Origin: Chiloscyllium plagiosum
Lineage: Eukaryota
NCBI RefSeq assembly: GCF_004010195.1
Contig: NC_057718.1
Location: forward strand, 50,377,380 to 50,441,379
Reading direction: 5' to 3'
Length of the DNA: 64,000 bases
Position numbers and translations under genes: made by a program. The notes under the pieces were generated by a model, which ran no database searches, was not told where the DNA came from, and worked only from the letters and a program-made list of their open reading frames with translations. Of the stretch, positions 1-63,854 are shown piece after piece (positions within the stretch are counted from its first letter, which is position 1; every line of letters starts with the position of its first letter).

Positions 1-150
1 TCCCCACTCCCACCCTCCTCTAGCTTATCTCTCCATGCTTCAGGCTCTCTGCCTTTATTCCTGATGAAGGGCTTTTGCCCGAAACGTCGATTTTGCCTGT
101 CCTCGGATGCTGCCTGAATTGCTGTGCTCTTCCAGCACCACTGATCCAGA
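1..150 (+). mobile_element. 3' terminal repeat (pLTR) of a Penelope-like element, family A, truncated by the window start
   Basis: Same sequence type as the 3' end of the RT/GIY-YIG element at 4798-6969 (…ttcctgatgaagggc…ggatgctgcctga…gctgtgct.ttccagcacca) and the - strand copy at 63726-63854. Confidence 0.8.
57..92 (+). ncRNA. Minimal type-I hammerhead ribozyme motif (PLE family A)
   Basis: CTGATGA(61-67)-A-GGGC/TTTT/GCCC stem II-GAA-ACGT palindromic stem III-C88 (GUC triplet); weak stem I. Confidence 0.75.
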
Positions 151-159
151 ATTGAAGTA

Positions 160-905
160 AATGCAGTTTAATTTATTAGTCCTACCTTGTTCTCTGCTTT
201 GTCCCTGCCTGCCCTGACTGTTTGGCTCGCTTCTTTTCTCAACTGTATCAGTCTCAGATTGATCTCTTTCCTCACTATCTCCCTGGTACCAGGGAAGCAA
301 CACACCATTCTGATTTTTCACTGCTTGCCACAGAAATGTCAGTTCATGCCTCGGACTAGAGAGCCCCCTTACACAATGGAAGGGAATGTACTCCTCACTG
401 CATCTAAGCCAGTCTCAATACCATAAACTTGGCTATTCCTGCTATATTCCCCTGATAATCCATTACCCTCTACATTTTCCAAAACAGCATACTTATTTGA
501 AATGGGGATAGCCACAGATGACTTCTGCACTACCTGCCTACCTCTCGTAGCTTTTGGAGAGTTAACCCGTTTATGGGACTGTATCTGTGACTTTTCTCCC
601 TTCCTATAACTGCCATTCATCACACCTCCTTGCTCTTATAAATTGCCTCTAACTGTTGCTCCAACTGTCCCATTTGATCTGATAGAATTGGCAACAAACG
701 GTGTTTATTGCAGATATAATGCTCAGTTACACGTAAACTCTCCCTAAACCCCTACATCCGACAAGAAGAGCATATCGTTCTACTAACAGCTATTTTTGCT
801 TCTTCCAATGTGCAGACCCAGAAAATAACGCTGTTTTATTCCTCTACAAAACACTGCTCCAGGTTAACTTAATACTTATGGCATATATTTTTAAGTTTAA
901 TCAAA
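160..905 (-). mobile_element. Degraded 5' region/ORF1 fragment of a CR1-type LINE
   Basis: ORF 369..623(-) contains VAIPISNKYAVLENVEG, resembling the 'VAIPLSNRY' motif of CR1 ORF1; frame broken. Confidence 0.55.
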
Positions 906-1354
906 AGACAGTAATTTGGATGATGAAGAAGAAAAAAATGCTAAACCTGGATTAATATCAACAGTAACCAGCAAAATACAACAAATATTGGAAACCGGAA
1001 AGATAACTAAAACAAGTGACGAGGGCACTTCATAACGTTCATGACTCAGCCCTGCAGTAATACTGCAATGTTATTACAATCAAGCAGCTTTTCCTCGAGG
1101 TTATTCCCTGTTTGGTTGATGCTCTGTAAATGCAAATCTGAAGGAGACCATTTTGTTTAGAGTTCCCATTTCATTGAGGAGGCTTCAGGCCTACCTATAT
1201 CCAATAACCTGCCCTGAAAGCTCTGCTCACATTTTGACAGCTTCGAGACAAATTTTACCACAGCCGCTCAGACAATCCATAATGTTCTAAAGAAAACACA
1301 CAACGTAATTAAAGATTTCGCCTTGACTCCCAAAATTAATGGACCATCTAAAAA

Positions 1355-1620
1355 CCATCAGTTGTACATTGATGGAATGAAAGCGATTCTTGTTGATGAA
1401 AGCCACTGAAGAGAGAGCCATGATGATCCTGTGGACCACTGGTACTGGATGTTCCCCAAACCATTGGGTCTGACCTCACTCTGAAGTATGACATGTAAGT
1501 CAATGATATCCTCCCTGAAGAGCTTCAATCTGATACTGCCATTTGGGCATCTGCAAATACAGACAGATTGTGTTCTGTGGATAGGACCTTGTTCCTGCAG
1601 GAAAATGACAGCACACCCCT
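1355..1620 (-). mobile_element. Internally deleted PIF/Harbinger (HARBI1-like) transposase remnant
   Basis: Minus frames give LYLQMPKWQY, RLKLFREDIIDLHVILQSEVRPNG and, after a deletion, FINKNRFHSINVQL (Harbinger motif NRKGFHSxNVQ). Confidence 0.7.
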
Positions 1621-2569
1621 CTCTGCCCAACTCTAGCATGCTTACCTGAATGCTAGCTGTTTTACTGCTTCTACTATCCCTTCCGTGTCCTTCCTTATAT
1701 CTGCTTACCCCTCTTCTGAGCTGTTCATTCTCCTCAATGGGGATGGTAGGTTTGAGGGCTGGGGTGGAGTTAAGTTCTTGATAGTAGATGAGTTTTCCCT
1801 CTTCCCTATGTGTTCTTTGCAGCCCACTATCCCAAACCTTTTCATGAGTAGGCCATTGGGAGTAAGTGTCACTCCTCTTCTTCATCCAGGCAGTGCTCTG
1901 AAATCTGACAGTACCCATATCACATTTGGCAACTAAAATTCAAGTTAATTGGCATCAAAACTACCTTAACATTGATGTCTTTGTAGTGTAAAACTCCATC
2001 CCAATATTCTGTACCACATTTTAAAATTTGGAAATGATAGGACCAGAAGACTAGGGTAGTCTTAGCTCATAGATCAGATGCACAATTTAGAGAGAGAAAT
2101 CTTTTGTCTTTTAAGTCTGTCCCACACTTTTGCAAACGTCTTCCTAGTGTCAGAGAGTAAAGAATAAAACTGTGTAAGATATAACTTTAAGTTCAGCTCC
2201 TGAAAAGTCCTAATAAATATTAACAGAACGAGTGAAGAGTAGCATTAACAGTTCTGCAGTGATTAAGCTTACTTAAGTTTTTCTATAACAAGGAGGATGT
2301 AAGCAATTTGTAAATTCCATGCTAAATTATACAATTGTTAATTTTATGGGGCAGGTTGTCTTCATCTTTATTTGGATCCTCCTGCCTCTGAACCCTCTAC
2401 ATAGGTTTAAGAGGTTCCATTCAGAACAACATGTTGTCACATATCTATAAAACAATAATAAGGACCAAATGGAATTCACAAGTTGACACAACTTAGTTAA
2501 ATTCAAAAGATTTGACAATTGAATACCTTTCAAAAATTATAAGAAGTCTATAGATATTTTTAATCAACC

Positions 2570-2670
2570 CATTCAAATATATTATAATACATATCAAGAG
2601 CAGGTGGAATTTGAACACAGGCCTTCCAGCCCAAAGTTAGGGACATTACCATTGCACCACAAAAACCCTT
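2570..2670 (-). mobile_element. tRNA-derived SINE head fragment
   Basis: Minus strand gtggtgcaatggtaatg…gtgttcaaattcc gives A-box and B-box-like motifs. Confidence 0.5.
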
Positions 2671-2784
2671 TTAATAAGAACTTTGCATTTGAATTGAATC
2701 TTTTGGCCACAAACTCACAAATTTACTTTCAAATAAACTGAAGTATCATTGCCATTTTCACTACACAGTCACTAGCAGTTCAAA

Positions 2785-2985
2785 GTTAAAAATCACACAA
2801 CACCAGGTTATAGCCCAACAGCTTTAATTGGAAGCATACTAACTTTCGGAGCATCTGTCACCTGATGAAGGAGTGTTGCTCCGAAAGCTAGTGTGCTTCC
2901 AATTAAACCTGTTGGACTATAACCTGGTGTTGTGTGATTTTTAACTTTGTACACCCCAGTCCAACACCGGCATCTCCAAATCATG
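2785..2985. mobile_element. ORF-less fold-back element made of inverted PLE terminal repeats (family B) with hammerhead motif
   Basis: Arms aaagttaaaaatcacacaacaccaggttatag… / …ctataacctggtgttgtgtgatttttaacttt; motif cacCTGATGAaggagtgttgctccGAAagctAgtg at 2859-2893; 14-bp TSD acta(g/a)cagttcaaa at 2771-2784 and 2986-2999. Confidence 0.85.
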
Positions 2986-5405
2986 ACTAACAGTTCAAAT
3001 TAACACATTATTATGTTCTCAGCAAAGCTCACATACTAAAAATTAATTATTTATGTAACCAAATAATTTGGAGTATATCTTATGAATGAAATTAATTTTC
3101 AATGTGCTTTAACCAGATCAGATAAGCTGATAGCAATATTCCTTCTGGATAAAAACACTTTTCATAAAGTCAATATAACAGATAAACTATAGCCTGTCAA
3201 AGATCTACCATAAAGTAGTTTTGCTTTTTCCTTTTGTGGTAAAGCACTGAATATATGAGAAACACATCCACCTGCAATTGGGTATTATTTGTGTAATAAT
3301 TCTCAACTAACTGTCTGTGTGCCACTTGCCTAGTGCTTGAACTAGGGGTGAATTATGCCCCTGACATAAGAATGAATTCATTTGATTCTCACCTCAGGCA
3401 AATCATTTTTTATTCAAATGGTTGCCTGTTTATACCTGTACTTATGCTGTGAAATAGATTAATCTTATTGAGTAAGATTTGCAAGCTAAAATCTTAAGTG
3501 TTGTGTGTGAATATTATTAGTTGTGTGCTTGCGTCCCTGTCTTCACCTCAAATTAAAAAAAGAACTTTACTTAGAAATTTTGCAGTCTAACTCTTTTAAG
3601 GAAAAAAATAATAATATACTGGTGCACTTTTATCCACCAACTTGAAAATTCTTCTTATTTTTGGCCTGAGAAGGAAATAATCCTCTTGGAACACTGTGAT
3701 AGTGCCCACATCAGCCATCCTACCAGCCTCATTGAAGTAAATTGTTTAATTAATGTCAATCTAGAGGAAGTTTATGTTGGAACTATCTGAATCAGCTTCA
3801 CTCAGAAGCTTCAATGTCTTTCAGAATAACATTTGCATCATTTTAGTCTGGGCTCACATCCAGACATTGAAGAACTGTTTGTAACTCAATGCAATCTAAT
3901 CTCTCATTAATCTGCCATTAATTGAAATATATACAAAACAAACGCCCCAGAGTATCATTTATTTGTAGATGTACTATGGAAATCTTGGGTTTAAGTCAAT
4001 AAAATTGAAGCACCAACTTGGCCATGTTGGACAAAAGTAGGACAGATTTTTCTCTCGATTCTCAATTGGGAAAAGGATAATGGAAAGTGGTGTATGGAGC
4101 TACTTTTTCAGCAGCTGGGACTTTGGACAGGACTTGTGTGTACATCAGAACCTGCTGTCAGGCTCAAATCTCCAATGCCTCCCTCCACCATTTCTGGTTC
4201 TACATTGACTGATTTACTGGATAATAAGTCCACCCTCTGGCCATTAAGGATGGCTGGTCAGCTTTTGAAGCTGGAAGACTAATAGAGCCCCTCAAACCTA
4301 GAAGTACGGAAAAGTGAAATTCATGTACATTGTAATTATATAATGGATGATATGAATCTGACCTCAGTAAGAAAGAAATAGCAAATGAATTGAGCATGGG
4401 AAGAGCATCTTAGACACTAAACTAGAGATTTGCATTTGATAATTTATGTACAAGTAAGTATAATGGTACAGAAGGAGCTGCAGATCCCTGTGTACACTGA
4501 GCTGCTGCATTACTGCTTGGTTTGGGAATTGCACCATCTCAGATCGTAAGACCCTACAACAGATAATGAGGACAGCTGAGAAGATCATCGGGGTCTCTCT
4601 TCCCTCCATTACAGACGTTTACACCACACACTGCATTCAAAAGGCTAAGAGCATTGTGGAAGATCTCACACATCCCTCACTCAAATTCTTCTCCCTCCTG
4701 CCATCTGACAGAAGATACCGGAACATTCAGTCTCTCATGGTCAGACTGTGCAACAGTTTCTTCCCGTGGGCCATCAGGGTTCTTAACACTGTATGCTTTC
4801 TCCTTTGCATCCTCCCACTTCCTCCAGATGAAAGGGGTAGCCATGGGCATCAGCATGAGGCCCAGCTATTCCTGTCACATCATTGGCTACGTGGAACAGT
4901 CCATCTTCCGGAGTTACACCGGCACCATTCCTCACCTTTTCCTCTGCGACATTGATGACTGCATCAGTACCACCTCATGCTTCCATGATGAGGTTGAACA
5001 GTATATCAACTTCACCAACACATTCACCCCCGATCTTAAATTCACCTAGACCATCTCAGACATCTCCTTTCCCTTCCTGGACTTCTCCATATCTATCAAT
5101 GGTGATCATCTTCTCTAAATCCACCGACTCCTACAGCCACTTTGCCTCCTGTAAAAATTCTATCCCTTATTCCCAATTCCTCCACCAGTTCTACCACAGA
5201 GCATACCAGATGGCCTCCTTCTTTAAAGACCGCAATTTCCCCTCCCATGTGCTTGATGATGCCCTCCAGTGCATCTCATCCACTTCCTGCGCCTCAAACC
5301 CCACCCCTCCAACCGCAACAAGGACAGCACCTCCCTGGTCCTCACTTTCTACTCCACCAACCTCCGTATGCATCACATCATTCTCTGCCATTTCTGATAC
5401 CTACA

Positions 5406-6225
5406 AACAGACCCCACCACCAGAGATATATTTCCCTCCCCACCCCTATCCGTTTTCTGTAAAGACCATTTCCTCCACGACAACCTGGTCAGGTCCACCC
5501 TCTGCTCCTGCACCTTCCCCTGCCACCACAGGAATTGCAAAACCTGCACCCACACCTCCCCCTCACCTCCATCCAAAGCTCCTCAGGAGCCTTCCACATC
5601 CATCAGAGTTTCACCTGCACTTCGACATATGTCATTTATTGTATCTGTGGCTCCCGATGCGGTCTCTTCTACAGTGGGGAGACAGGACGCCTACTCGCAG
5701 AGCACTTCAGAGAACATCTCTGGGACACCAGCACCAATCAACCTCACCGCCCTGTGGCCAAACACTTCAACGTCCCCTTCCACTCTGCCAAGGACATGCA
5801 GATCCTGGGCCACCTAACAGACCCCACCACCAGAGATATATTTCCCTCCCCACCCCTATCCGTTTTCTGTAAAGACCATTTCCTCCGCGACTACCTGGTT
5901 AGGTCCACCCTCTGCTCCTGCACCTTCCCCTGCCACCACAGGAATTGCAAAACCTGCACCCACACCTCCCCCTCACCTCCGTCCAAAGCTCCTCAGGAGC
6001 CTTCCATATCCATCAGAGTTTCACCTGCACTTCGACATATGTCATTTATTGTATATGTGGCTCCCGATGTGGTCTCTTCTACTGTGGGGAGACAGGACGC
6101 CTACTCGCAGAGCACTTCAGAGAACATCTCTGGGACACCAGCACTAATCAACCTCACCGCCCTGTGGCCGAACACTTCAACGCCCCCTTCCACTCTGCCA
6201 AGGACATGCAGATCCTGGGCCACCT
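5406..6225 (+). repeat. 410-bp tandem duplication covering the GIY-YIG region
   Basis: Copies 5406-5815 and 5816-6225; about 11 substitutions counted by eye. Confidence 0.95.
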
Positions 6226-6590
6226 CCATTGCCACTCCCTAACCACCCGACGCCTGGAGGAAGAAGGCCTTATCTTCTGTCTCGGAACCCTTCAACCCCA
6301 GAGCATCAATGTGGATTTCACCAGCTTCCTCACTTCCTTTCCTTCCACCTTATCCCAGATCCTACCTTCCAGCTCAGCACCGCCTTCATGACCTGTTCCA
6401 TCTGTCCATCTTCCTTCCCACCTATCTACTCCACCTTCCTCTCTGACCTATCACCATTACCCCCAACTCCATCTATCTTATCACATTCTCAGCTACCTTC
6501 ACCCCCAGCTCCAGCCGCACCCCCTCTCATTTATCTCTTCACCCCTTAAGCTCCCAGACTTGTTCCTGATGAAGGGCTGTTGGCTGAAAT

Positions 6591-6901
6591 TACATTACAT
6601 TACATTACATTATAGTGTGGAAACAGGCCCTTCGGCCCAACAAGTCCACACCGACCCACCGAAGCGCAACCCACCCATACCCCTACATTTACCCCTTACC
6701 TAACACTACGGGCAATTTAGCATGGCCAATTCACCTGACCTGCACGTCTTTGGACTGTGGGAGGAAACCGGAGCACCCGGAGTAAACCCACGCAGACACA
6801 GGGAGAACGTGCAAACTCCACACAGTCAGTCGCCTGAGGCGGGAATTGAACCCGGGTCTCTGGCGCTGTGAGGCAGCAGTGCTATGCCACCGTGCCGCCC
6901 A
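6591..6901 (-). mobile_element. HE1/V-SINE-type tRNA-derived SINE
   Basis: Minus strand gggcggcacggtggc…gggttcaattccc, central gtgtggagtttgcacgttctcc domain, CR1-like tail gggccgaagggcctgtttccacact, (taatg)n end. Confidence 0.9.
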
Positions 6902-8364
6902 CTAATGTCGGTTCTCCTGCTCCTTGGATGCTGCCTGACCTGCTGTGCTTTTCCAGCACCACACTCTCTACTGTATGCTCAGACTCTATTCCACCTGAAA
7001 TTCTTTGCACGACTTCGACTTGCTGCTAAACAATGTTTCATTAATTATCATTCTTTTATTACACTGTAATTTGTACAACACTGTGCCTATTGTCTTGACA
7101 TGTCAGGAATCACTGCGCTGTCTTGCATGTTTTGCACTTCTAATGCACTTTATGCCACCCTGTGTATGATCGTGTAGTTTGTATTGTCCATGTAGCACCT
7201 TGGTCCTGGAGGAACATTGTCTCGTTTTTACTGTATCAGTTGTATATAGAGGAATGACAAATGTAGCTACTTGACTCTTGAGATCTTTACTTGGAGATAA
7301 GTGGCCTCAGGGACACTGTATATACAGACACATATAGCCCAATATACTGCAGCCAGGTATCATTTGGATGAATATATGGCCATGTGGTGAAATGTCTGTT
7401 TACAGCCATGGGATCTCTATCATACCTCGACATTGTAGATATCTTAAGCTATACTTCAATAAACCCCTCATGTTGAACACACTGCTGTGTTGTACACTCA
7501 AGAATGGTGTCATGGGTGGTAAACATCCAGAGCTGAAATTTAGTAAAAGCACAGTTGTAGAGCAGTGAGCTCTCACAGAAAGAGGAAAAAATAATCAGTG
7601 AAAAATTCTGATCTGGAGAAAATGGCTGTAGCCTTTCCCCTCCTAGCTCCTGTCCAAATGACTGGGAATATGAGACAAAGCTGGGAAACTATGGCAGAAA
7701 TGTACAAAAGCCTCACATCCGGTAACCCAACCAGAACAAGTAGAAGTTGTTACAGTTTATCATCTTTGGGAAGGGACTGTCTCACATTCCATCTTGCTTT
7801 AAATTTCTCTGAAGAGCAGAAATTCTAAACTTTGAAGCCATCCTTTGAGCCGCAAGTAAACATTCCAGCATCTGCAGTCATTGTTTTTACCCAACATTAC
7901 AAATGAGCAAAGGGAACAGAGTTAAAAAAAATCATTGATCAATACGCAAAATCATTAACTCAATTTGCAGAAACCTCAATTTGCAATTAAGGGACAAGTT
8001 AATTTGAGATAGAATTGTATTTGGAATTACGGATCCAAAAGTTAGAAACAAGGTAAACAGCTAGATCATTCTGTTGCACAGTTTCAACAACCTTATATGA
8101 GGGAGATGTTAAATATCAACATGGAAGGAAACTGTGCACACAGGCAGGACAAGAATCACAAACGTGGACACTAAACCACAGCATTAATTCTTTAGTAAAT
8201 AGATGTCATGTACATTGATACAACAATTAAGTAAAATGAATTCAAAACACACATTGTGAGCCAATGTCTGATAAAATGAGAAAAAACACATATTTACGCA
8301 CATTAATTGTATGAAAATAATTCCCAAGTACACACACTGACCCCAAGACACATTATAACATTGA

Positions 8365-18609: not shown

Positions 18610-18797
18610 CGTGGAGATGCTAGTGTTGGACTATAGTGGACAAAGTAAGAACTCACATGATACCATGTTATAGTCCAACAGGTTTATTTAAAATCACAAA
18701 CTTTCAGAGCGCTGATGAAGGAGCAACACTCTGAAAGCTTGTGATTTTAAATAAACCTGTTGGACTATAACCTGGTGTTGTCTATTTCTAACTTTAT
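18610..18797. mobile_element. Second fold-back PLE family-B mini-element with degenerate hammerhead
   Basis: Arms gttatagtccaacaggtttatttaaaatcacaa / ttgtgattttaaataaacctgttggactataac; CTGATGAaggagcaacactctGAAagctTgtg starts at 18712. Confidence 0.8.
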
Positions 18798-21952: not shown

Positions 21953-23200
21953 TGTTATGGACCAGGCCAGACCATTCAAAACATTCTTAACCAGGCAACC
22001 CTCGATCTAACTTTGCAATTTGTTTCAGTAAGTGTACAGTGAAAATTACCTGGACTAAGATAGCTAGGTTGACTACTAGATTTTAAAACAGACCAAAAGT
22101 TTATTCACAAAATTACACAATGAAATACAAAGAACAGAATAAAGAGCCCCTACAGGACTCAGCCTATCGAACTACACTTAATTATGATTTGGAGATGCCG
22201 GTATTGGACTGGGGTGTACAAAGTTAAAAATCACACAACACCAGGTTATAGTCCAACAGGTTTAATTGGAAGCACACTAGCTTTCGGAGTGACGCTCCTT
22301 CTCAGGTGATTTGTCGAGGGCTCAATTGTAACACAGCAAAAATTTTTGCTATAAATTCTGTGTGTTGGACTGGGGTATACAAAGTTAAAAATCACACAAC
22401 ACCAGGTTATAGTCCAACAGGTTTAATTGGAAGCACACTAGCTTTCGGAGTGACGCTCCTTCATCAGGTGATTGTGGAGGGCTCGATCGTAACCCAGAAT
22501 TTATAGCAAAAATTTGCAGTGTGATGTAACTGAAATTATACATTGAAAAATTGATTGTCTGTTAAGCCTTTCATCTGTTAGAATACAGAGATTGTTTCAC
22601 TTCTTTCATGTGTCAATCACAAAACCTTTTTTTTTAAGTTGCATCTTTAAAAAATGCAACTTTAAAAAAAGGGTTTGTGATTTACACATGAAAGAAGTGA
22701 AACTATCACTGTATTCTAACAGATGAAAGGCTTAACAGACAATCAATTTTTCAATGTTTAATTTCAGTTACATCACACTGCAAATTTTTGCTATACATTC
22801 TGGGTTACGATCAAGCCCTCCACTATCACCTGATGAAGGAGTGTCACTCCGAAAACTAGTGTGCTTCCAATTAAACCTGTTGGACTATAACCTGGTGTTG
22901 TGTGATCTTTCACTTTGTACACTTAATTACGCTGTTCTGAATACACACTTCAGTCCCAATAAGCAAACTCCCATCAAAAACCAGTACAAATGGAACACAT
23001 GCTTACAGGCTGATGTTGAAGGGCAGAAAAAAGAGAGTTTCCACACAGCTCCCTGTTGAACTTCCCAGCTCAAGATCGAACTAAAAACTGCTTAGCTTGG
23101 CTTCTCTTTATACAGGTCACTTTGAAAACATGACCATTTTGGCGTGAAGTCTCATCTGTTTACATATAAACAAAGGCCTCTCAAAGTCCTTTTCATCTCA
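21953..23200 (-). repeat. Left (nominal 3') LTR of the Gmr1-type element, truncated and interrupted by a PLE fold-back
   Basis: Begins tgttatggaccaggccagacc; aligns by eye with 27358-27860. Confidence 0.85.
22185..22917. mobile_element. Composite PLE family-B insertion: two tandem - strand pLTRs plus one + strand pLTR forming a ~545-bp hairpin; three hammerhead motifs
   Basis: Arms about 22376-22644 / 22654-22920; motifs at ~22275-22308(-, 1-nt deletion), 22436-22470(-, intact) and 22827-22861(+); 12-bp TSD tacacttaatta at 22173-22184 and 22918-22929. Confidence 0.85.
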
Positions 23201-42229: not shown

Positions 42230-42460
42230 ATGAAAGAAGTAAAACTGCCATGGCCATTCTAACAGATGAGAGACCTAACAAACAATCAAGGTATTTTCCA
42301 ATGTATAATTTCAGTTACATCACTCTGTAAACTTTTGCTATAAATTCTGTGTGTTACAATTGAGCCCTCCACAACCACCTGATGAAGGAGCAGCGCTCCG
42401 AAAGCTAGTGTTTCCAATTAAACCTATTGGACTATAATCTGGTGTTGTGTGATTTTTAAC
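42230..42460 (+). mobile_element. Solo PLE family-B terminal repeat
   Basis: Matches 22690-22915. Confidence 0.85.
42376..42410 (+). ncRNA. Best-preserved family-B hammerhead motif
   Basis: CAC-CTGATGA-A-GGAGC/AGC/GCTCC-GAA-AGCT-A-GTG; stem I CAC/GTG. Confidence 0.8.
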
Positions 42461-42772
42461 TAGGTTTCTATAGACATTGAAATGGCATAATTGCCATTTT
42501 TGACTAAAATTGTGCAAAATAGGGCGAAGATGGAACAATGGAATTACAGCTCCAGTGCTACTATAAAGTGAAAGGTAATCCTTGGCATGAATAAACATCC
42601 ACTCTAAGAACTGTTCTCTCTCATTAATTGGAATGAACTTTGATTTAAAAGTGGCACAGTAAAGAACATTTATATTTTCTTTGAAGGATATTTGAACTCA
42701 TAATTGTTCTTAAGAACCTTCAAAACAATTTGTAAGAGTTGACATCAATTATAAAGGGATCAGGTGTAATTT

Positions 42773-43045: not shown

Positions 43046-43364
43046 AGTGACCTGGCAATAAATATCTTTGATGGGAGAGAAGCACCAGAAAGAAAGAAGT
43101 TAAGAAAGAAGTTCGGTGGTTAAAAGACACAAAGGAAAGCTGCAGATTTGCAGAAGAGTAGAGGAAATTGAGCATGAAAGTGAACACCACATGGTTGTAA
43201 ATACAAAATGGAAGCAAATGTACCTTAAATGATATTCAATTAAATTACTGCACTCAGTCTAATCTCATCACAGATCCCCACCACTGGCAGCAATAGTAAG
43301 TAGACCCGTATTTGTTCGTAATTCTTCCTCCCAGGGGCCACCAAACCGAAAGACACAGTCCTCA

Positions 43365-44040
43365 CAGCTAAACAAAGGCCCTGAATAATATAGCCAATAT
43401 GTCTACATCAACATAATTCAAAAGGGACCACCATGATCTACAAAACAATTCCATCTTTTGGTGCACCATATTCGTGAGGAAGTCCACGGGTATGTGTTCC
43501 ATGGCTATCCTATACCAACTCAAGTATCCTGGGGGATTCTTTGACACCCAGCTCATTAGAATGTTCTTCCTCGTGCAACAAGAAAGAATATTAAACAATT
43601 TCTTCCCATGTGCATTCAGGGAGGGAAGATTTGGGAGACCCAAAAGGAGGGATACTGGATCCAAGCTAACATCAGTTCCCAAAACCTTTACCAAAACACT
43701 CGCTATGTCATCCCAATATTTGCAGAACTTGTGGCATGACCACAAGCAGGGAGTAAGAGTACCGACCTCCATTTTGCACTTGGAGCACACTGGAGACACT
43801 CCTGTCTTGAATTTCACAAGCTGTTCTGGTGCCAGGTTGGCCTTATGAAGTCCCTTCAGTTGAATAGTTTGGGTCCTATTACAAGTCAAGATCTTCCTAA
43901 TATTTTCCCAGATATCCTCCCAAATCTCTGAGGACATTTACACCCCTTATTCTTAAATCCAGGTTTTATATAGTCATTCAATGTCCTTTGAAATATTACT
44001 ACCTAATAAGTGATAGAGAGTGCTAACCGAGAGGGCGCCA
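43365..44040 (-). mobile_element. L1-clade LINE ORF2 C-terminal (Cys-rich) fragment
   Basis: ORF 43368..43937: WEDIWENIRKILTCNRTQTIQLKGLHK…PVCSKCKMEVGTLTPCLWSCHKFCKYW. Confidence 0.75.
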
Positions 44041-44852
44041 TGGTCATTTCTTAATGTTGGGAGAGGATCATTCCGTACAACTGGTGACAATGGTTTACCA
44101 TTTCCCCATGCAAAGCATAACAGGAAAAATCACAATATTTTTATGCATTGGTAAGAGTCTCCAAACCATTAATTCTCTGGAAAATAGTGCTAAAAAATTT
44201 TACTAAAGGTGAAATCAAGATTATGAGAAACAAATGTTTGAAAGAGAGCAAATATTCATTTTCAAAGAAAATTAAGATTACAATTTAGTATCAACAGATG
44301 TAAAATTTGGTGTAATTTTTAAATATCATTCTAAAAGCAGGATGCCTTATGATAAAAGGAAAGCAACCAAGGGATCATAAAAGCTCTATTAGAATTTGAA
44401 TTCAAAGCAAATTTTAAAAAAGTCTGAAGGAAAGCAACATCAAAGGAGAGCAACATCATTTCACAAATGTTTCCCATTCCACGTTATAAGGTTTGTTACT
44501 GTAGATTCTATGGGAAATCATGGTGGTATCCCCTACCACATATACAAAAGTACCAAGTGACAAAAACCTGGAACAGTATGAAAATTCAGATTTGTAATAA
44601 GGAGGGTCCAAAAATAGAATGCTGGGTACAGAAAATGAACTGAAATTCGTAGAAGTGACAGAAATCACATTTCCAGAGCTAAAAGCAGGATGCAACCACA
44701 CTTCAGCAGTAGAACTCTAGGATTATCAGTGATGTTATGCACCAGACCAAAGCCTCTTCAAATATATCAAGGAGATAGCCTGGCCACTATCTCTTGTCTT
44801 ATTTAAAGGCAAGTGTAAGGTGTTGTTTTCCAGATGTAATTCGATTTAATCA

Positions 44853-46024
44853 ACACAGGAATTCTTGGACATCATCAGAAATATACACATAGACAAGGAA
44901 GAAACCATGGTCTCATTCGACGTAACGGCACTGTTCACGCCTATTGACAAAGCCCTAGCCAGAGAAACAATAGCCAACCTGCTGAACAGACACAACAGAC
45001 AACAGGACGTTGAACCCATCAACAAAGACGGCATACTTAAACTACTGGACTTGTGCCTCACAACACACTTCACATTCAACAACCAGATATACAAACAAAT
45101 CAACGGAACACCCATGGGCTCATCGATCTCGGGACTCATAGCAGAAGCAGTAATGCAAAGGTTAGAACAAACAGTCTTACCACAAATTCAACCCAAACTC
45201 TGGGCCAGATACGTGGATGACACCTTTGTAATCATTAAAAACATGGAAATAGAGAATACACACCGGGTCATCAACTCCACACTCACAGGAATCCAATTCA
45301 CGAGAGAGGAAGAAAAGGACAACCAACTCCCATTCCTAGACATGAGGGTACAGAGAGCAGCTCTATAAAACTTTGGTTAGACCGCACTTGGAATACTGCG
45401 TCCAGTTCTGGTCGCCCTGTTATAAGAAAGATGTTCAAAGTTTGGGTGAAGATTTGTAGCTCGGGTGCTCGTTGCTGTGTTTCTGTTTGCCGAGCTGGAA
45501 GTTTTTGTTGCAAACTTTTCGTCCCCTGTCTAGGTGACATCCTCAGTGCCTGGGTGCCTCCTGTGAGGCGCTTCTGTGGTGTTTCCTCCGGCATTTATAG
45601 TCGCATGTCCCTGCCGCTTCCGTTTCAGCTGTCCACTGTAGTGGCCGGTATATTGGGTCTAGGTCTATGTGTTTGTTGATGGAGTTTGTGGATGAGTGCC
45701 GTGCTTCTAGGAATTCCCTGGCTGTTCTTTGTTTGGCTTGCCCTATAATGGTAGTGTTGTCCCAGTCGAATTCATGTTGCTTGTCGTCTGCGTGTGTGGC
45801 TACTAGGGATAGCTGGTCGTGTCGTTTCGTGGCTAGTTGATGTTCGTGGCAGCGGACAGCTGAAACTGACAACCGGAAGCGGCAGGGACAGGCCCCTATA
45901 AATGCCAGAGGAAACACCACAGAAGTGCTTCACAGGAGGCTCCCAAGCACTGAGGATGTCACCTAGACAGGGGACGAAACGTTTGCAACAAAAACTTCCA
46001 GCTCGGCGAACAGAACCACAGCAG
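44853..46024. mobile_element. Rearranged Penelope-like element, family C: RT (+, to ~45355), ~80-bp CR1 piece, inverted endonuclease C-terminus/pLTR (-), partial pLTR (+)
   Basis: ETMVSFDVTALFT…GTPMGSSISGLIAEAVM…WARYVDDTFVI…LPFLD; - strand HEHQLATKRHD…AREFLEARHS…SINKH. Confidence 0.9.
45947..45986 (+). ncRNA. Hammerhead motif, PLE family C (mutated mirror copy at 45510-45549, -)
   Basis: GCA-CTGAGGA-T-gtcacc/tagaca/ggggac-GAA-ACGT-T-TGC. Confidence 0.7.
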
Positions 46025-46281
46025 AATAGTAGATTATTTAACTGGTAGACAGCAACTGTTCCAGTGACATCCCGTAAACACACTCTTTGTTAAGTCAAAT
46101 TACATAAAACAGATTATCTCACATGAGATTGTGGCAACAGAGACAGAACTCAAGCTTTTAAATGTAGCAGAGAGAGGTGTAGTTGCATTAAAAACCCAAC
46201 AACTACTGAAAGCTAAACTAAAACATTGGTTCTGTGGAAGCCTGACTCCACCCATTCATGCTGCTTCTATTATTCCAAAAA

Positions 46282-51099: not shown

Positions 51100-53900
51100 T
51101 CTGACCATAGCTAAAAGGCGTTAATGACAATGGCAAAATGGTCTGATCGGAACAGAATCATTCAGCAGTGTGTGGACTGGAGGTTTACATTAGGACCATG
51201 CAAATGTTTCAATGCAGCTAACTGCAGAGACTGCTCAGGAAGTGCAATCGTCTGATGGGTAAATATCCAGCATCTGAAAACCTCCAAAAAAGTCCCAAAC
51301 TTTGTGTTTTTAGGGGACAACAAAAAAAAACATGACTACCTTGAAGGTACAGAACAATGATGAATTTTGGTATGCAGAAGTGAAAGTAAAAAGCAGGGAA
51401 ACTACTTTTAAATTAAGTACAGGAATTACTTTTCTCTTATTCACTTGTGGATGGCTGGCCGGCAATTATTGCCTGGCCCTATCTGCCCTGGAGAAGGTGG
51501 TAGAAGCTGCCTTGTTGAACTGCTGCAGTCCATGTGCTTTATGAATCCTTTTGGATACTTTGCCCTGGTTGAGGACTATAATCCTTTGACTTGTCTTGAT
51601 TAAACTTTGGGCTTGGGAAATGTAACAATCAGAGTAAGGACCCAATTGCATATCACACTTTGCAAGTCTTTACATCAAACCTAATTCTTAATCATTATGA
51701 TTCTGCATTAACTGCTTGTATTGCTATGGTTATCCTTCAGTCAGTGGTTTCTGAAGATAGTTTGAAGCCAGCAGTATAAGAGGGTTTTATCTTAAAATAG
51801 AAATGACAGGTAAAAAAGGAGCCAAACAAGACAATAATCACAATGGCATTACAGGCATTGGTTTGCTCTTTCAGAATATAGTTACAGAGTGGAAATCCAC
51901 CATTCAAATTGTTTATTTGCTCAAACCTAAAACTTTAGATCTTCCTATACTTTTGAATTTAGTTGAGAGAGTTGGTTTAAGTACACCTATCTCTTTTAAG
52001 GAGCATCAACATCTTCTTGAAGAAGATATAAAAGAGTGGAGCTATCAGCTTGTTATCAGAACCTGCTAGAGAGATGCAGTGAAAGCAACTGCAGTTAGAT
52101 TTGGATTTTAAAAAAAACACCTGTAATGGAAAGTCAGCCTACCTTATGATCATAGAATCACAGAATCCCCATAGTGTGGAAGTAGGCTACTCAGTCCACT
52201 GACTCGAAAACTGACATTCTGAAGAGCTTCCAACCCAGACCGAACCTCCCCACACTCTATCCCTGCATCTTTGCATTTCCCATGACTAATCCATCTAGCC
52301 TACACATCCCCCAACACGATGGGTGGTTTAGCATGGCCAATTCACCTAACCTGCACATCTTTGGACTGTAGGAGGAAACCAAGGCACCCAGAGGAAACCT
52401 ACACTGACATAGAGGGAATGGATAAACACTACACAGACAGATGCCCGAGGGTCCCTGATGCTGTGAGGCAGCAAACCTTTTATTAGATTAATCACTACCA
52501 AAAGCAAGTGAAGATTTTAAAAAGAAATACTGCCAGTAAAATGGCTACAGAATCTGACACATTAAGAATTGGTAAAAAGGTATTTAACATAATAGGACAA
52601 GGTCTCAGAACTTCAAAACAAGGGAAGAGTCAAGACCTTTGAAGCAGTGAGAATGGATGGGGCCATACCCGCAAAGACAGAAACCAATTGTATGCACCAA
52701 ATGTTTTTAATCATGCACAAAGGGCATTGACATGAGCTTGACATGTTTAGAAAAAAACTTCAATTCTCAGTAAGGCTCCAAATGCCCACTGAGAAATGCA
52801 ACAATCTCTTCAAGTGGATAACAAGGATCTCTTGTGCTCTGGATGTCTTAAATCCAAAGTGGATTATGTTAATATTTGACATTCAGAAACTGTTGCTTTA
52901 TGTAAATAGCAATTGGAAACTGCAAGGTAAATCCATCTAAAAAGATGGAAAAACTAAAGAGCTTTTTCAGGCAAAGCCTCCAGGACCAGATTATTGAGCT
53001 CATGGAGACACAAGTTGCTTGCAAATCATATTGCAACAGCTGTGCAATTCATATCATTACCTACAGAACTAGTAATTCCTGGAAGTATCAGAAAAACCTT
53101 TGTCTCTTTGTCTTGAGCATCATCTTCTGAATGTTATTTGTTTTTCTTCTGGTGTCCTGCATTCATTCATAGATCAAACAGGCAAAACAAAGAAATTACT
53201 AGAAAGTTTTTATGTTCCACACATCCTTTAAGAGAATAAGGATTGTTCTTAGAGATTAGTTCCACAAACATTAGAAACATAGGTGATGAATATAATATGT
53301 TATGGGTGAGATGTCAATGGTAAGAAGACTTGCACTGTAAAACAGCTTGCAAGGAGATGGAAAAAGAATTATACCTTTACTCATTACTGGTCATGGCAAA
53401 AGGATATCATAGTGATGCTAGATGTTATGGGACTGAACTCTGTATCATTCAAGCTCAAAATAAGTTGCTCTCTCTTCCTATCCTCTCAATATAATTATGC
53501 ACAACAAAACTTATTGCTATGCTTTCACAAAAGAATAGCTCTCACTTGGCTACTGTATGGGGCCTGCTTATGTTCTTGCTGGTTTTCCTGACAAGTGCAC
53601 TTTTTTTGTCTTGTTGCCACCTTTTGAAGATTACTCCTGACTGCACAGTGTTGATGTCTCCATTCTTGTCAAAAATCAATAATGTTAAGTGCAAATCTAT
53701 ACCAGGAAAGTGTTAAACATAATTGGATTGAACCAGGTCATGTGAAATATTTGCCTCCAGCATTATTTGTTCACATCTTGATTCTGATTCTTGACAATGA
53801 AATAAAAATGATTTAACCTTCTCTGATACATCAAAAATATTACCTTAAATAATTACAGTGTTTCAATCTTCTCAGTAAGGACCATTGGTGAGCTGGGTGT
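51100..53900 (+). mobile_element. Highly decayed Ty3/Gypsy pol remnants
   Basis: WYAEVKVKSRETTFKLSTG (protease FKLDTG-like), LLNLVERV, weak RT-like stretches; many stops; boundaries uncertain. Confidence 0.45.
52150..52473 (-). mobile_element. HE1/V-SINE-type SINE, diverged
   Basis: catggccaattcacctaacctgcacatctttggactgt…gctgtgaggcagca. Confidence 0.85.
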
Positions 53901-54523: not shown

Positions 54524-54922
54524 GGCACAGTGGCTTAGTGGCTAGCCCTGTTACCTCACAGTACCAGGTGAATTGGCTATCCTAAATTGCTCATAGTGTT
54601 AGGTGCATTAGTCAGAGGGAAATGGGTCTGGGTGGATTACTCTTCGGAGGGTCAGTGTGGACTTGTTGGGCTGAAGGGCCTGATTCCACACGGTAAGGAA
54701 TCTAATCTAATCTAATATACCAGGGACTGGGTTCAATTGTCACCTCAAGTGGCTGTCTGTGTGGAGTTTGCACGTTCTCCCCATGTCTGCGTGGGTTTCC
54801 TCCCACAATCCAAAAATGTGCAGATTAAATGAATTAGCCATGCTCAATTGTACATAGTTTTAGATGTATTAGTCAGGGGTAAAGATAGGGTAGGGAAATG
54901 GGTCATACTGTAGGGAATCTAA
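54524..54922 (+). mobile_element. HE1-type SINE with a 5'-truncated HE1 3' half inserted in its head
   Basis: Inner copy 54569-54717 with (tctaa)n tail, flanked by taccagg at 54562-54568 and 54718-54724. Confidence 0.85.
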
Positions 54923-55600: not shown

Positions 55601-55609
55601 ATAATATAA

Positions 55610-56010: not shown

Positions 56011-56094
56011 CCTCATTAAAATTCCAAAATAGTTAAGAGCAAGATATGGTTTCCAGGAAGTTAATAGCTGAACAATCCAAATTGTCTAGCAAAT

Positions 56095-56342
56095 TGTTCA
56101 ATTCCCGCCTCGGGCAACTGTCTGTGTGGAGTGTGCACATTCTCCCTGAGTCTGGTTTCCTCTGGGTGCTCCGGTTTCCTCCCACAGTCCAAAGATGTGC
56201 AGGTTCGGTGAATTGGCCATGTTAGGTGTATTAGTCAAGGGTAAATGATGGGGAATGAGTCTGGGTGGGTTGCTCTTTGGAGGGTTGGTGTGGATTTGTT
56301 GGGCTGAAGAGCCTGTTTCCACACTGTAGGGAATCTAATCTA
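56095..56342 (+). mobile_element. HE1/V-SINE-type SINE, 5'-truncated
   Basis: gttcaattcccgcctcgggcaactgtctgtgtggag…gcctgtttccacactgtagggaatctaatc. Confidence 0.88.
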
Positions 56343-56800
56343 CATAATCTCTGGGGTGCTCATGTTAATAAAGGTGTGCATCATTCGTACATTGAGTAGA
56401 ACGTAGTGGTGAGGACCTAAGATCCAAAGCAAAAATCGGTAGCATTTCCAATGAGCTGATTTTTGGGAGTCCTGACAGAATAAAATGTAAGAACCCTGCC
56501 ACCAAAACAGCTGTGTCCAATAGAGACATTAAATTGCCATACTCTTTATTATAGAATATATCATACCACTGCAGCTCTCCTGCACCAATATTGGACATTA
56601 TTGGTACTACATTGCTATGTATCATCACTAAAGCACTAGCAGAGAGGTAATTGGAGTAAGCCGGCCTCCCAGGGTGGAAGGTGCTGACTGTTGTACAAGG
56701 TAATGAATATGAATGGACTAATCTGAGCTAAACTGAAGCTCTGCCCAGTTTTGTATATAACAAGACCATTGGGTAGAGGATTGGGCAGCTGGAGTCAGTT

Positions 56801-57575: not shown

Positions 57576-58260
57576 CCTTTGGATGTAGGTTTGCTCGCTG
57601 AGCTAGAAGGTTCATTTCCAGACGTTTCGTCACCCTACTTGTTAACATCGTCAGTGGGCCTTCAGACGAAGCACTGTTGATAATTCCTGCTTTATATTCA
57701 CATGTTTCAATTTCCTTGGATTGGTGATGTCATTTCCTGTGGTGATGTCATTTCCTGTTCTTTTCCTCAGGGGGTGATAGACGGGGTCTAACTTGATTTG
57801 TTTATTACATGAACATCAACTAGCCACAAAACGACATGACCCTCTCTCACTAGTATCCCTACATACAGATGAGGAAGGACACCACTTTGACTGGGCCAAC
57901 ACATCCACTCTCGGACAAGCCAAACAGAGACACACACGAGAATTCCTAGAAGCATGGCATTCCAACTGGAACTCTATCAACAAACACATCAAGTTAGACC
58001 CCATCCACCAATCCCTGAGAAAAAGAACAGAGAATGACATCACAATAGGAAATAATGTCACCACAGGAAATGACATCACCAACCTAAAGAAACCCAAACA
58101 CAAATAGAAAGCAGGAAACATCAGCAGTGCTTTGCCCGGAGGTTCACTGAAGATGTTACCTAGTAGGGTGACGAAATGTCTGGAAATGAACCTTCCAGCT
58201 CAGTGTGCAAACCTACATCCAGAACTTCAACCTGAGCTACAAATCTTCTCAAAACTCACC
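57576..58260. mobile_element. PLE 3' end (related to family C) with 5' inverted pLTR and two hammerhead motifs
   Basis: HEHQLATKRHDPLSLVS…REFLEAWHS…SINKH; motifs at 57618-57657(-, CCA-CTGACGA…GAA-ACGT-C-TGG) and 58143-58185(+); 9-bp TSD acaagacta at 57567-57575 and 58261-58269. Confidence 0.85.
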
Positions 58261-61350: not shown

Positions 61351-61756
61351 CATAAAGATCACAATGACCCCAGAGATGAAATATCTCTCACAACAAATAC
61401 AAAAGCAAAACTTTTGAATGTTTGAAATAAAAAAAAAGTAGTGGATTTACTCAATAGTTCTGCCAGTGACTGAAAAGGCAGAAACCAAGTTAACAACATT
61501 TCAAGTTGATCATATTTTCTCTGATGTTTCACCCAAAACATTAACTCTCTTCTCGCCACAGACAAAATACCTTGTTGATTTTAGTGAAATTCATTCAAAA
61601 CACAAAACTGGAAATTCCATTTTGTATCATTGCTGACTTTTTCATTAAGGTTCTAGGTGGGTTTGGAATTCAACCTGAGGTAAACACTGCTAAAGCAATG
61701 ACAACTATTTCTGACTTCTCAAGTGGTATATAATTAGCTAGGTAGTTTGTTTTTCA

Positions 61757-62088
61757 TTATTCAGTGGCAGGATGAGGACATGACTGGCATTTATTGCCCA
61801 GAGAGTAATTAAGAGTCAACCACATTACTGTGGGTGTGGAGTCACATGTAGACCAGACCAGGCAAGGATGGCAGTTTCCTTCCCTGAAGGACATTAGGGA
61901 ACCAGATGGGTGCTTCTCTAACAATCAACAATGGATTTATAGTTATCATTAGACTATTCATTCCAGACATTTATTGAATTTAAATTCCACAATCTGCTAT
62001 TGAAGGATTTGAACCCTGTTCCCTAGAACATTATCTGGATCTCTGGATTAACAGTCCAGTGATAATACCACTAGTCTATCACCTCCCC
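61757..62088 (-). mobile_element. tRNA-derived SINE (third family)
   Basis: Aligns by eye with 32667-33033; - strand head ggaggtgatagactagtggtattatc…gggttcaaatcc. Confidence 0.7.
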
Positions 62089-62515
62089 CTGCTTCTGCTT
62101 ATTTTCTTGTAGGAGAATGGGCATGAATGATGAATGAGGACAAAATTGTATTCAGTCATGATATTCCTGTCATCAAATTCCTTAGAAACTCTCATTATTT
62201 AGAATGAATAGAGATTATGCTACTTGCATAAATTAGCAGTGGCTTGAGTCCTTAGAATTATACTCCAGAATAAATCATCAAAGTAAAGAGGAATAAGGAA
62301 GAAAATTAGGGATATATGCAAACTTGAAAAAGTACTTTACACTGACCTGGAACTGGTTTTAAGAAGATATGTGGCCTGACACAGGTTGCAGTGTTTCTTT
62401 CATATGGAAATTACATCACCTGAGCATCTCAGTTAGATATGGTGCCTAACGCTGAGATGTCACTGGATTGGGAAATATGGGCTCTGAGTTTTTTTTTGTT
62501 CACCACTTCATAGTA

Positions 62516-62731
62516 CAATCGGTTCTGCTATAACGTATTTCTTCAATGTGAATTAGCCTTAACGTGATTTCAGAATTTAAACTGTTATTTGTAGAATTTG
62601 AACTTTCTTTGCCTGTATTGGCTGTAACGTGATTCTGGCCCATTAATTTAAATGATGTGGCTACTGCTTTATTTTCTTATTATGTGAGATTGCATGAGAA
62701 CAGAACTATCACATTATATCAGAACCAACTG
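62516..62731. mobile_element. Tc1/mariner (pogo/Tigger-like) MITE
   Basis: TIRs caatcggttctgctataacg / cattatatcagaaccaactg (16/20 match) flanked by TA on both sides. Confidence 0.75.
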
Positions 62732-62785
62732 TATATGATTTTGGAAAATCAATATAGTGCGCTACAAAATCACTGCCTCAGCGAG

Positions 62786-63412
62786 TGTTATAGGCCTGAC
62801 CAGCTGCTCAAAATATATTAAGAAGGTAGAATTGACCCTAACTTTTTCTTATTTTAAATGTAAATGTGAAATGCTGTGTTCCAGATGCAATTTGATTTGT
62901 CAAACTACTCAATGTTAAGCAAAACACAATTTATTCAAACACTACAGTTAAAATACAGCACAAGAAAGAGGAACTTGGAATATCTTAACTCTATTGAAAA
63001 ACTTGACAGAATCATAGCTTATTTTACTACTAAACAGTAACTATTCCAATATTGTAACATCCCATAAACACACCCTTGGCAAAAGGCAAAGTCAGAAAAC
63101 AGAGTTGTCTCACATGCAACTACAACAGTTCAGGAGGAAAAACATCTACAGAAAAATCACCCAGAGAGAGATTCACTGCCTTTCAATCCTGCTGAGACCC
63201 CAGCAACAACTGCTGAAAGCTAACTAAAAATTCTGCATCTGTGAGAGCTTGACCACACCCACTCTATTGCTTCTATCGTCCCAAATGTTTTAAAAAGTCC
63301 AAGGCATTGAAAGTTGTTTATCTTCTTATAGACTACTTGGAACCTGTCCTCCAATCTGTCTCTCAAAGAAACCAAGAGAAAACATACCTCTTAAAACCAC
63401 AGCATCATCATA
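62786..63412. repeat. Solo Gypsy-type LTR
   Basis: tgtta…catcatcata termini; flanks cgag/caag fit a 4-bp TSD with one CpG-type change; related to 44733-46281. Confidence 0.65.
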
Positions 63413-63725
63413 CAAGATAATATATGTTTCCTTGTTCTTATTTGCAGCCATCAGAGAAATGTTGCTTCTAGGAATGGAACTATCTTCTCCTTTGCACAAA
63501 TAATGTCTACATGAAACATTCTGTAGGTTAGCTAGTACATTGTAGATTTGGAATCATGTTAATTCATGCCAAAAATGCCAACTCACCACACATCAGAACA
63601 GTATCAATCTAGTTTCTATATTTTTTCTTATATTTACTTCATTCTAATTCTTAGGACATTGTCAATCATGCTGTGATTCTTTTTGCCACATGTATAGGAA
63701 GGAGAGCAGACATTGGATACCAGAC

Positions 63726-63854
63726 CGGTTAAAAACAACGACTGCAGATGCTGGAAACCAGAGTCTAGATTAGAGTGGTGCTGGAAAAGCACAGCATTTC
63801 AGGCAGCATCCATGGAACAGTAAAATCGATGTTTCGGGCAAAAGCCCTTCAGGA
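63726..63854 (-). mobile_element. Solo 129-bp PLE family-A terminal fragment with 3-nt-deleted hammerhead
   Basis: Reverse complement resembles 55-150; 9-bp TSD ataccagac at 63717-63725 and 63855-63863. Confidence 0.85.

What the first reader, a model, noticed from the sequence alone, without database searches (positions are those of the whole stretch)
57..63854. About 12 minimal hammerhead-ribozyme motifs carried by three or four Penelope-like families
Seen: the pattern stem I-CTGANGA-N-stem II-GAA-4-mer-H-stem I recurs at 57-92(+), 2859-2893(+), 6566(+, disrupted), 18712(+), ~22275(-), 22436(-), 22827(+), 42376(+), 45510(-), 45947(+), 57618(-), 58143(+) and ~63830(-, 3-nt deletion). Stem II differs between families (GGGC/GCCC, GGAGC/GCTCC, GTCACC/GGGGAC, GTTACC/GGTGAC) while the core is kept, which is structural covariation. 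The best copies have a self-complementary 4-mer (ACGT or AGCT). Established: PLE terminal repeats carry minimal type-I hammerheads thought to cleave as dimers through a palindromic stem III. Inference: at roughly one motif per 5 kb, this genome may hold a very large, largely unannotated set of self-cleaving RNA motifs that could act on any transcript crossing them.
Basis: partly seen in the sequence, partly recalled or inferred. Interest (0 to 1): 0.75.

Follow-up and report, generated by a model that had tools for sequence, protein, structure and literature searches.

The report
Shark Penelope ends carrying decayed hammerheads
The motifs are real minimal hammerhead (self-cutting RNA) motifs at the ends of four families of Penelope-like jumping genes in a shark-type genome, a pairing described in 2014; the scattered copies decay like the DNA around them and are likely mostly inert, although one family carries a poly(A) signal just behind the motif that is used in RNA.

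Summary
All 13 listed sites exist and exceed chance (8 strict matches vs 0 in 100 shuffles). They sit in the terminal repeats of four Penelope-like element (PLE) families: two Neptune-type (A, B) and two Poseidon-type (C, D). Each family is tied to a GIY-YIG-type endonuclease sequence; A, B and C also show the PLE 35-bp tail. Only 5 of 13 keep core, palindrome and 3-bp stem I together.

The density extrapolates: 186 remnants in 1 Mb sampled elsewhere, about 0.6-0.7 million genome-wide, with 53,677 exact matches to three patterns. Core bases decay as fast as flanks across copies, and partners mostly lie on the opposite strand. Polyadenylated RNA crosses the cut site with no drop in depth. So 'acts on any transcript' is unsupported; the constraint lies in the lineages that produced the copies.

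Family A has an ATTAAA/AATAAA signal 10 nt after the cut, and reads carry poly(A) 27-32 nt after the cut. The PLE-hammerhead pairing is published (Cervera and De la Peña 2014). This scan has noted it before on other DNA (702 notes, at least 36 genomes), including the poly(A) signal. Verdict: new members of a known kind.

The parts
1..152 (+). Family B (Neptune-type) pLTR end; hammerhead C3 at 61, predicted cut after 88; core and ACGT intact, stem I only 2 bp (a family trait)
2778..2990 (+). Family A fold-back stub: inverted partial arm 2778-2851, sense arm from about 2858 with intact hammerhead (C3 2862, cut after 2890) and 35-bp tail; 9-bp direct repeat at 2776 and 2991
4790..6962 (+). Degenerate family B PLE: RT-like fragment, CX4CxxC linker, GIY-YIG-type endonuclease frame (5463-6391, internally duplicated), 3' UTR, hammerhead at 6566 split by a repeat insertion (about 6590-6905), remainder 6904-6962
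   Evidence: motifs read by eye, Pfam gave no hit
18612..18795 (+). Family A fold-back stub; sense arm starts at C3 18712, stem I lost
22181..22922 (.). Complex family A insertion: two minus-strand copies (C3 22305 with 1-nt core deletion; C3 22467 intact) and an inverted plus-strand copy (C3 22830, AACT), inversion centre about 22648; 12-bp target duplication at 22173 and 22918
42230..42461 (+). Family A stub: TATAAA-like box upstream, intact hammerhead (C3 42379, cut after 42407), ATTAAA at 42417-42422, poly(A) added after 42434/42437 in reads of this family, GU-rich stretch behind
44850..45368 (+). Family C (Poseidon-type) RT fragment
   Evidence: Pfam RVT_1 E=1.1e-8; 84-88% identical to Chiloscyllium punctatum proteins
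45434..46023 (.). Family C inverted pair: minus arm 45434-45849 with endonuclease C-terminus, hammerhead C3 45546 (AAGT) and tail; plus arm 45850-46023 with intact hammerhead C3 45950 (cut after 45983)
57578..58258 (.). Family D (Poseidon-type) inverted pair: hammerheads C3 57654 (minus, ACGT) and C3 58147 (plus, ATGT), endonuclease C-terminus 57781-58107; 9-bp direct repeat at 57567 and 58261
63730..63857 (-). Family B stub starting about 5 nt before the motif; 3-nt core deletion, ACAT; with tail

Best explanation
The 13 motifs are minimal type-I hammerheads in the terminal repeats (pLTRs) of four Penelope-like retrotransposon families, left as 5'-truncated, often inverted stubs; the ribozyme likely works only in the transcript of an intact tandem element, as a slow, protein-assisted dimer, while the dispersed copies decay neutrally and are likely mostly inert. 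Shown here: PLE origin, copy number, neutral decay, inverted or solo arrangement, and poly(A) addition behind the family A motif. Inferred from published PLE work: two motifs pair through the palindromic AGCU/ACGU to form stem III and cut after H17, trimming multimeric element RNA. Inferred here: selection on the fold acts only in the lineages that produce new copies. In family A the pLTR would read TATA box, then hammerhead, then poly(A) signal, so the likelier effect of a stub on a passing transcript is 3'-end formation, not cleavage.
For: PLE origin: A is linked upstream to CHGGRCKTC ... IVYLIRCRQGCPEAWYIG; B to CHHRNCKTC ... YVIYCICGSRCGLFYCG; C to an RT and to VVYKITCKDCTKHYIG with no zinc linker; D's fragment is 68% identical to C's over 72 aa. 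Two 3' ends about 35 bp apart, the PLE tail, occur in 6 of 30 A, 14 of 30 B and 14 of 25 C loci. An inverted upstream copy occurs in 17, 7 and 17 of 30 loci, as described for PLEs (PMC8557442, passages). In C the ORF's ATG lies at A9-U-G10.1 and the upstream ORF's stop in loop II in 12 of 14 readable copies; PAc of Anolis also starts its ORF at stem II (PMC11167929). Neutral decay. Lineage-level structure: stem II pairs differ between families; in 17 C/D copies 93.5% of cells pair and one stem I pair swaps U-A/C-G/G-C. Published: monomers inactive and dimers weak (PMC4209133); PAc cuts only with its protein, and no RNA reads began or ended at the cut (PMC11167929); 8 of 9 Xenopus retrozyme dimers did not cut (bioRxiv 10.64898/2026.07.22.740005, passage). 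Poly(A): 770 reads with A tails after 42434/42437 and 746 at the same two places on a second copy; 37 of 47 sampled A copies keep AATAAA or ATTAAA.
Against: No cleavage was measured here. A poly(A)-selected library is biased towards uncut RNA: the 5' product has no tail and the 3' product is about 30 nt, so partial cleavage is not excluded. About 0.19 million copies are estimated to keep core plus palindrome (53 in 1 Mb), so dimers in trans or between distant copies are possible. In C/D the motif overlaps coding sequence on both sides, so part of its conservation may be protein constraint. No full-length tandem element was recovered (three candidate long frames, L257, L269 and L270, were assembly gaps). 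The RNA is one sample whose reads come mostly from other copies (22 of 3,574 and 185 of 5,280 reads were 99% alike or more).
Confidence: 0.85

Rival explanations
1. One reading: the dispersed motifs form a genome-wide set of active ribozymes that cut host transcripts crossing them, through dimers formed between distant copies or in trans.
For: Very large numbers: 22,803, 21,656 and 9,218 exact matches; about 0.19 million estimated to keep core plus palindrome. B, C and D share ACGU, so mixed dimers are conceivable. The elements are present in RNA.
Against: No excess conservation of the core over the flank. Partners are mostly inverted or absent; a transcript through a fold-back stub would pair the motif with its own complement (inference). 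Read depth is flat across the cut (1,085 then 1,119 in adjacent bins) and no pile-up of ends is listed. Published activity is low even for dimers (PMC4209133).
Confidence: 0.07
2. The short stubs are separate non-autonomous elements (retrozymes or MITE-like hairpins) that spread through their own small or circular RNA.
For: Many copies are short and begin at -14..+3 of C3 (20 of 31 truncated A, 61 of 120 truncated B); several are fold-backs with target duplications. Retrozymes are reported in one chondrichthyan (bioRxiv 10.64898/2026.07.22.740005, parts 1-2).
Against: Upstream lengths are continuous, from 0 to over 800 bp, and run into the endonuclease gene. Inversion points differ from copy to copy. 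Head-to-tail arrays, which define retrozymes, are rare.
Confidence: 0.06
3. The motif is kept in active lineages for reasons other than cleavage (promoter/initiator, start and stop codons, protein-binding fold) and no longer cuts at all.
For: In C the ATG and the stop codon lie inside the motif. Copy 5' ends gather at the start of the motif rather than at the cut (1 and 4 near the cut vs 1.7 and 6.5 expected). Core mutants of PAc did not affect insertion in vitro (PMC11167929).
Against: In A and B the motif lies in non-coding UTR yet has the same core, a palindromic 4-mer (AGCU vs ACGU) and paired stems; PAc's motif does cut with protein, and a C3G/G8C double mutant partly rescues it (PMC11167929).
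Confidence: 0.1

Closest known systems
Minimal hammerheads (min-HHR) of metazoan PLE pLTRs, Cervera and De la Peña 2014 (PMC4209133; parts 1-2 of 4 read)
   Same: Type I; no stem III; palindromic 15.2-16.2; extra base between 9 and 10.1; G10.1-C11.1; several families per genome; mostly solo copies or close pairs on opposite strands; reported in Neptune, Poseidon and Xena PLEs of fishes.
   Different: No cartilaginous fish is named in the parts read. Counts there are about 4,000 (coelacanth) and 9,000 (Xenopus), against at least 53,677 exact matches here (different descriptors, so not strictly comparable). Stem I here is only 2-4 bp.
PAc, Poseidon of Anolis carolinensis, Frangieh et al. 2024 (PMC11167929; parts 1-2 of 4 read)
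   Same: Families C/D: ATG at the start of stem II, cut about 27 nt downstream, two 3' ends defining a tail, AT-rich targets, no RNA ends seen at the cut site.
   Different: No biochemistry here; in family C the upstream ORF's stop codon also lies in loop II; copies are fragmentary.
Neptune-type PLEs as defined in Craig et al. 2021 (PMC8557442; passages read)
   Same: Families A/B: C-terminal GIY-YIG with internal cysteines, CX2-5CxxC linker, 5' truncation, inverted upstream copy, 30-40 bp tail.
   Different: No RT tree was built, so Neptune vs Nematis is not resolved. Family A has a TATA-like box and a used poly(A) signal around the motif; D. virilis Penelope has a TATA-less promoter (PMC2377424, passages).
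Non-LTR retrozymes (bioRxiv 10.64898/2026.07.22.740005; parts 1-2 of 5 and passages read)
   Same: Type I hammerhead, PLE-derived, non-coding short units.
   Different: These stubs are not tandem arrays of fixed units and grade into PLE coding sequence.

Membership tests
Minimal type-I hammerhead (min-HHR) | CUGANGA and GAAA-UH core around stem II | tested here: met
   10 of 13 window sites; 79 descriptor hits vs 0 in reversed control in 1 Mb
Minimal type-I hammerhead (min-HHR) | Palindromic 4-mer replacing stem III | tested here: met
   7 of 13 window sites; 53 of 79 sampled hits (ACGT 39, AGCT 13, ATAT 1), and 22 of the other 26 are the CpG-decay forms ACAT/ATGT
Minimal type-I hammerhead (min-HHR) | Extra base between 9 and 10.1 and a G10.1-C11.1 pair | tested here: met
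   All four families; G-C or G-U in 16 of 17 C/D copies
Minimal type-I hammerhead (min-HHR) | Compensatory change in stems | tested here: met
   Between families by inspection; one stem I pair with double changes in 8 of 17 C/D copies, 0 of 500 shuffles as high. Few independent events; related copies inflate the count.
Minimal type-I hammerhead (min-HHR) | Self-cleavage as a dimer | not testable with these tools
   RNA reads show no ends at the cut, but the library is biased to uncut RNA
EN+ Penelope-like elements | RT followed by a C-terminal GIY-YIG endonuclease with internal cysteines | tested here: met
   RT thumb contiguous with endonuclease in L261; RVT_1 hit; endonuclease motifs in A and B, read by eye without a Pfam hit
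EN+ Penelope-like elements | 5' truncation, inverted upstream copy, optional 30-40 bp tail | tested here: met
EN+ Penelope-like elements | Full ORF flanked by two direct pLTRs | tested here: inconclusive
   Three candidate long frames were assembly gaps
Neptune clade (families A, B) | CX2-5CxxC linker before the endonuclease | tested here: met
   CHGGRCKTC, CHHRNCKTC
Neptune clade (families A, B) | RT phylogeny with Neptune rather than Nematis | not tested
   No named reference sequences were fetched
Penelope/Poseidon clade (families C, D) | No zinc linker between RT and endonuclease | tested here: met
   L261 and L265 for C; D by similarity only
Non-LTR retrozyme | Tandem arrays of units each with a complete hammerhead | tested here: not met
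   One same-strand pair in the window (22305/22467), with one motif broken; same-strand whole partner in 2, 8 and 1 of 30 loci

The most novel reading that the evidence does not exclude
The family A stub is a mobile TATA-hammerhead-poly(A) cassette. About 100,000 copies seed working poly(A) sites through the shark genome and truncate host transcripts, and the hammerhead 27-32 nt upstream of the tail can remove that tail when two such RNAs pair through AGCU, making tail loss depend on the concentration of cassette-ended RNAs.
Probability: 0.08. Interest if true: 0.65.

Novelty: new member of a known kind. Interest (0 to 1): 0.25.

Why it matters
As a class this is known. Two things add modest value. 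First, the scale: an estimated 0.6-0.7 million remnants, about 0.19 million with core and palindrome intact, and none recognised by Rfam in this window. That makes this genome a large data set for asking whether PLEs need their ribozyme. Second, family A places a working poly(A) signal 10 nt behind the cut, with 32,181 exact copies of that stretch, which could shape host 3' ends. The copy ends also gather at the start of the motif rather than at the cut, which bears on the unsettled PLE replication mechanism.

Tried and rejected
Rfam scan: no hammerhead family matched; only weak miRNA-hairpin hits on the fold-backs, all below gathering score.

Pfam did not recognise the endonuclease fragments or 8 other window ORFs; those labels rest on motifs read by eye.

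Monomer folding of 10 motifs: z-scores from -2.6 to +0.15, only one below -2, uninformative as expected for a motif without stem III.

A first pattern for C/D was one base too long and found 24 matches; it was corrected.

A first 5'-end analysis was contaminated by inverted references and redone.

Three long 'open frames' were assembly gaps.

No RNA holder was listed for the stretch; run X14 laid 0 reads, so it was no test. The step in RNA depth at the start of the family A motif (about 400 to 1,000) is not taken as a transcription start, because genomic copies are truncated there in a similar ratio.

Lünse et al. (PMC5785218) is not held; I know it only through the review PMC6765202 (passages).

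Rejected: a chance pattern (shuffle and reversed controls are zero); independent MITEs (variable inversion points, continuity with the ORF).
Full report
Observation. A strict descriptor finds 8 matches against 0 in each of 100 dinucleotide shuffles; a looser one finds 12 against a mean of 1.4. Self-comparison sorts the sites into four families: A (stem II GGAG/CTCC, AGCT; 6 sites), B (GGGC/GCCC, ACGT; 3 sites), C (GTCACC/GGGGAC; 2 sites) and D (GTTACC/GGTGAC; 2 sites). Ten keep the core letters, seven of those the palindrome, and five also a 3-bp stem I. 22305 and 63852 have core deletions, and 6566 is split by an inserted repeat. Rfam has no match.

What carries them. The window is G000:C9:50377380-50441379 in a 3.56-Gb assembly. 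The RT fragment at 44850-45368 hits RVT_1, and its highest-identity listed relatives are Chiloscyllium punctatum proteins at 84-88%, so the genome is bamboo-shark-like. B at 6566 lies behind a frame with a CX4CxxC linker and a GIY-YIG-type motif. A shows no ORF in the window, but 30 loci fetched with an upstream A pattern extend by variable lengths; of 10 translated, most run into a second linker-bearing endonuclease. C is contiguous with RT thumb and endonuclease without a linker, and D's fragment is 68% identical to C's. By the features in Craig et al. (PMC8557442, passages), A and B are Neptune-type and C and D Poseidon-type; no tree was built. Copies of A, B and C end at two positions about 35 bp apart and often have an inverted copy upstream (17, 7 and 17 of 30); both are PLE hallmarks. 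In C the ATG of the next ORF is A9-U-G10.1, and the previous ORF stops in loop II in 12 of the 14 loci (of 25) where the frame could be anchored; PAc also starts its ORF at stem II (PMC11167929).

How many. Exact patterns give 22,803 (A), 21,656 (B) and 9,218 (C/D) matches, with reversed controls at 0. I fetched 100 stretches of 10 kb at round coordinates on contigs C1-C32 (957,643 non-N bases). Profiles built only from sequence downstream of the cut found 47 A, 179 B and 7 C hits, of which 34, 132 and 7 span the whole motif, plus 14 D hits, 13 with the motif in view. That is 186 per Mb, one per 5.4 kb, or roughly 0.6-0.7 million genome-wide; small contigs were not sampled. The 2014 paper counted about 4,000 and 9,000 motifs in coelacanth and Xenopus with a different descriptor.

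Are the copies under selection? Non-CpG core positions differ from the column majority at 4.5% (A) and 7.1% (B), against 6.1% and 6.3% in non-CpG, non-diagnostic flank columns (Fisher p=0.36 and 0.37). With all non-CpG flank columns the flank rates are 7.2% and 10.0%, inflated by subfamily differences. G12 sits in a CpG and is A in 7 of 34 and 27 of 132 copies. Intact cores: 15 of 34, 64 of 132 and 5 of 7; with palindrome 12, 37 and 5. The flank was used for detection and the core for alignment, so both rates are biased low. An independent descriptor gives 79 hits, 53 palindromic, 0 in the reversed control. Structure is kept between lineages: in 17 C/D copies 93.5% of cells pair and one stem I pair changes on both sides in 8 copies, which reflects few events. 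So the fold was maintained in the source elements and decays once a copy is inserted.

Can the copies dimerise? In the window the only close same-strand pair is 22305/22467, and one is broken. The pairs 22467/22830, 45546/45950 and 57654/58147 are on opposite strands. Elsewhere a whole same-strand partner within 1.5 kb was found in 2, 8 and 1 of 30 loci. Published min-HHRs are inactive as monomers and weak as dimers, and PAc's needs its protein.

RNA. One single-cell poly(A) run (X13, about 2 in 100 of it read, carrying the species label of a DNA run that holds the stretch) was laid on 42200-46100 and on a second family A/B locus. Reads come mostly from other copies, and the unique DNA between the repeats has almost no depth. 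Family A reads favour the sense strand (760 vs 168) and carry A tails after 42434 (355 reads) and 42437 (415 reads), and at the same two places on L229 (334 and 412). The A tails begin 12-15 nt after ATTAAA and before a GU-rich stretch; the genomic sequence there is not A-rich, which argues against internal priming. 37 of 47 sampled A copies keep AATAAA or ATTAAA, and the 33-nt stretch around the signal has 32,181 exact copies. Depth does not fall across the cut (1,085 then 1,119) and no pile-up of ends is listed, but this library cannot see cut products well. Whether these reads are element or host transcripts is open.

Copy starts. Prompted by earlier scan notes, I mapped 5' ends. Among copies truncated between -79 and +30, 20 of 31 A and 61 of 120 B start at -14..+3 of C3 (5.1 and 19.6 expected if uniform), while 1 and 4 start near the cut. 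A TATAWA box lies at -36..-40 in 14 of 21 long A references and in 0 of 37 B references; C has CTAYAAA at -54 in 18 of 25. Caveats: both arms of a fold-back are counted (non-inverted only: B 31 of 60, A 2 of 7), and a B subfamily lacking a long reference would falsely appear to start at the motif. This is a lead for templates that begin at an uncut 5' end, not proof.

Novelty. The pairing is established (PMC4209133). Searches for Penelope + shark + hammerhead ribozyme (1 review, listing only), Penelope-like + pLTR + polyadenylation (2 papers; in the one whose passages I read the term concerns Clec2) and bamboo shark + Penelope + genome (2 papers, listing only) showed no description of these shark families or of the poly(A) arrangement. 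The library lacks most subscription papers, and I did not see the supplements of the 2014 paper or of the 2026 preprint, which samples one chondrichthyan. This scan has recorded the same finding many times, including the poly(A) signal in this genome; those notes are not independent evidence, and I saw the poly(A) tails before reading them. Verdict: real, ordinary in kind, unusual in number; interest 0.25.

Noticed in passing
window 21944-27864: Two similar stretches (21944-23198 and 27349-27864, about 80% identical) flank minus-strand frames that look by eye like a decayed LTR retrotransposon (label recalled; Pfam found nothing). The triple family A insertion sits in the left repeat with a 12-bp AT-rich target duplication, and the right repeat shows the empty site.
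   Followed up: partly
window 6590-6905: An abundant repeat of about 315 bp with a (CATTA)n end, SINE-like (label recalled), inserted into the hammerhead's GAAA-ACGT segment; related copies at 20627-20816, 36479-36794, 37747-37943, 42845-43051, 52274-52450, 54565-54903 and 56096-56345.
   Followed up: no
window 45950-45970 and family C loci L086-L114: The Poseidon-type hammerhead holds both the start codon of the next ORF (A9-U-G10.1) and the stop codon of the previous one (TAG in loop II).
   Followed up: yes
L143, L147 (sampled 10-kb stretches): A further hammerhead variant with a 14-nt stem-loop II (GGGT/ACCT type) and TT/AA stem I, not present in the window.
   Followed up: no
window 44850-45368: After sharks, the family C RT's best-scoring relatives are tapeworm and fluke PLE-like proteins (about 50-58% identity); no tree was built.
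   Followed up: no
window 44850-46023: Family C reads are also sense-biased (54 vs 6 in the RT fragment); this may reflect element transcription or priming on A-rich sense sequence.
   Followed up: no
window 5406-6225: Tandem 410-bp duplication (97% identical) inside the family B endonuclease region.
   Followed up: no
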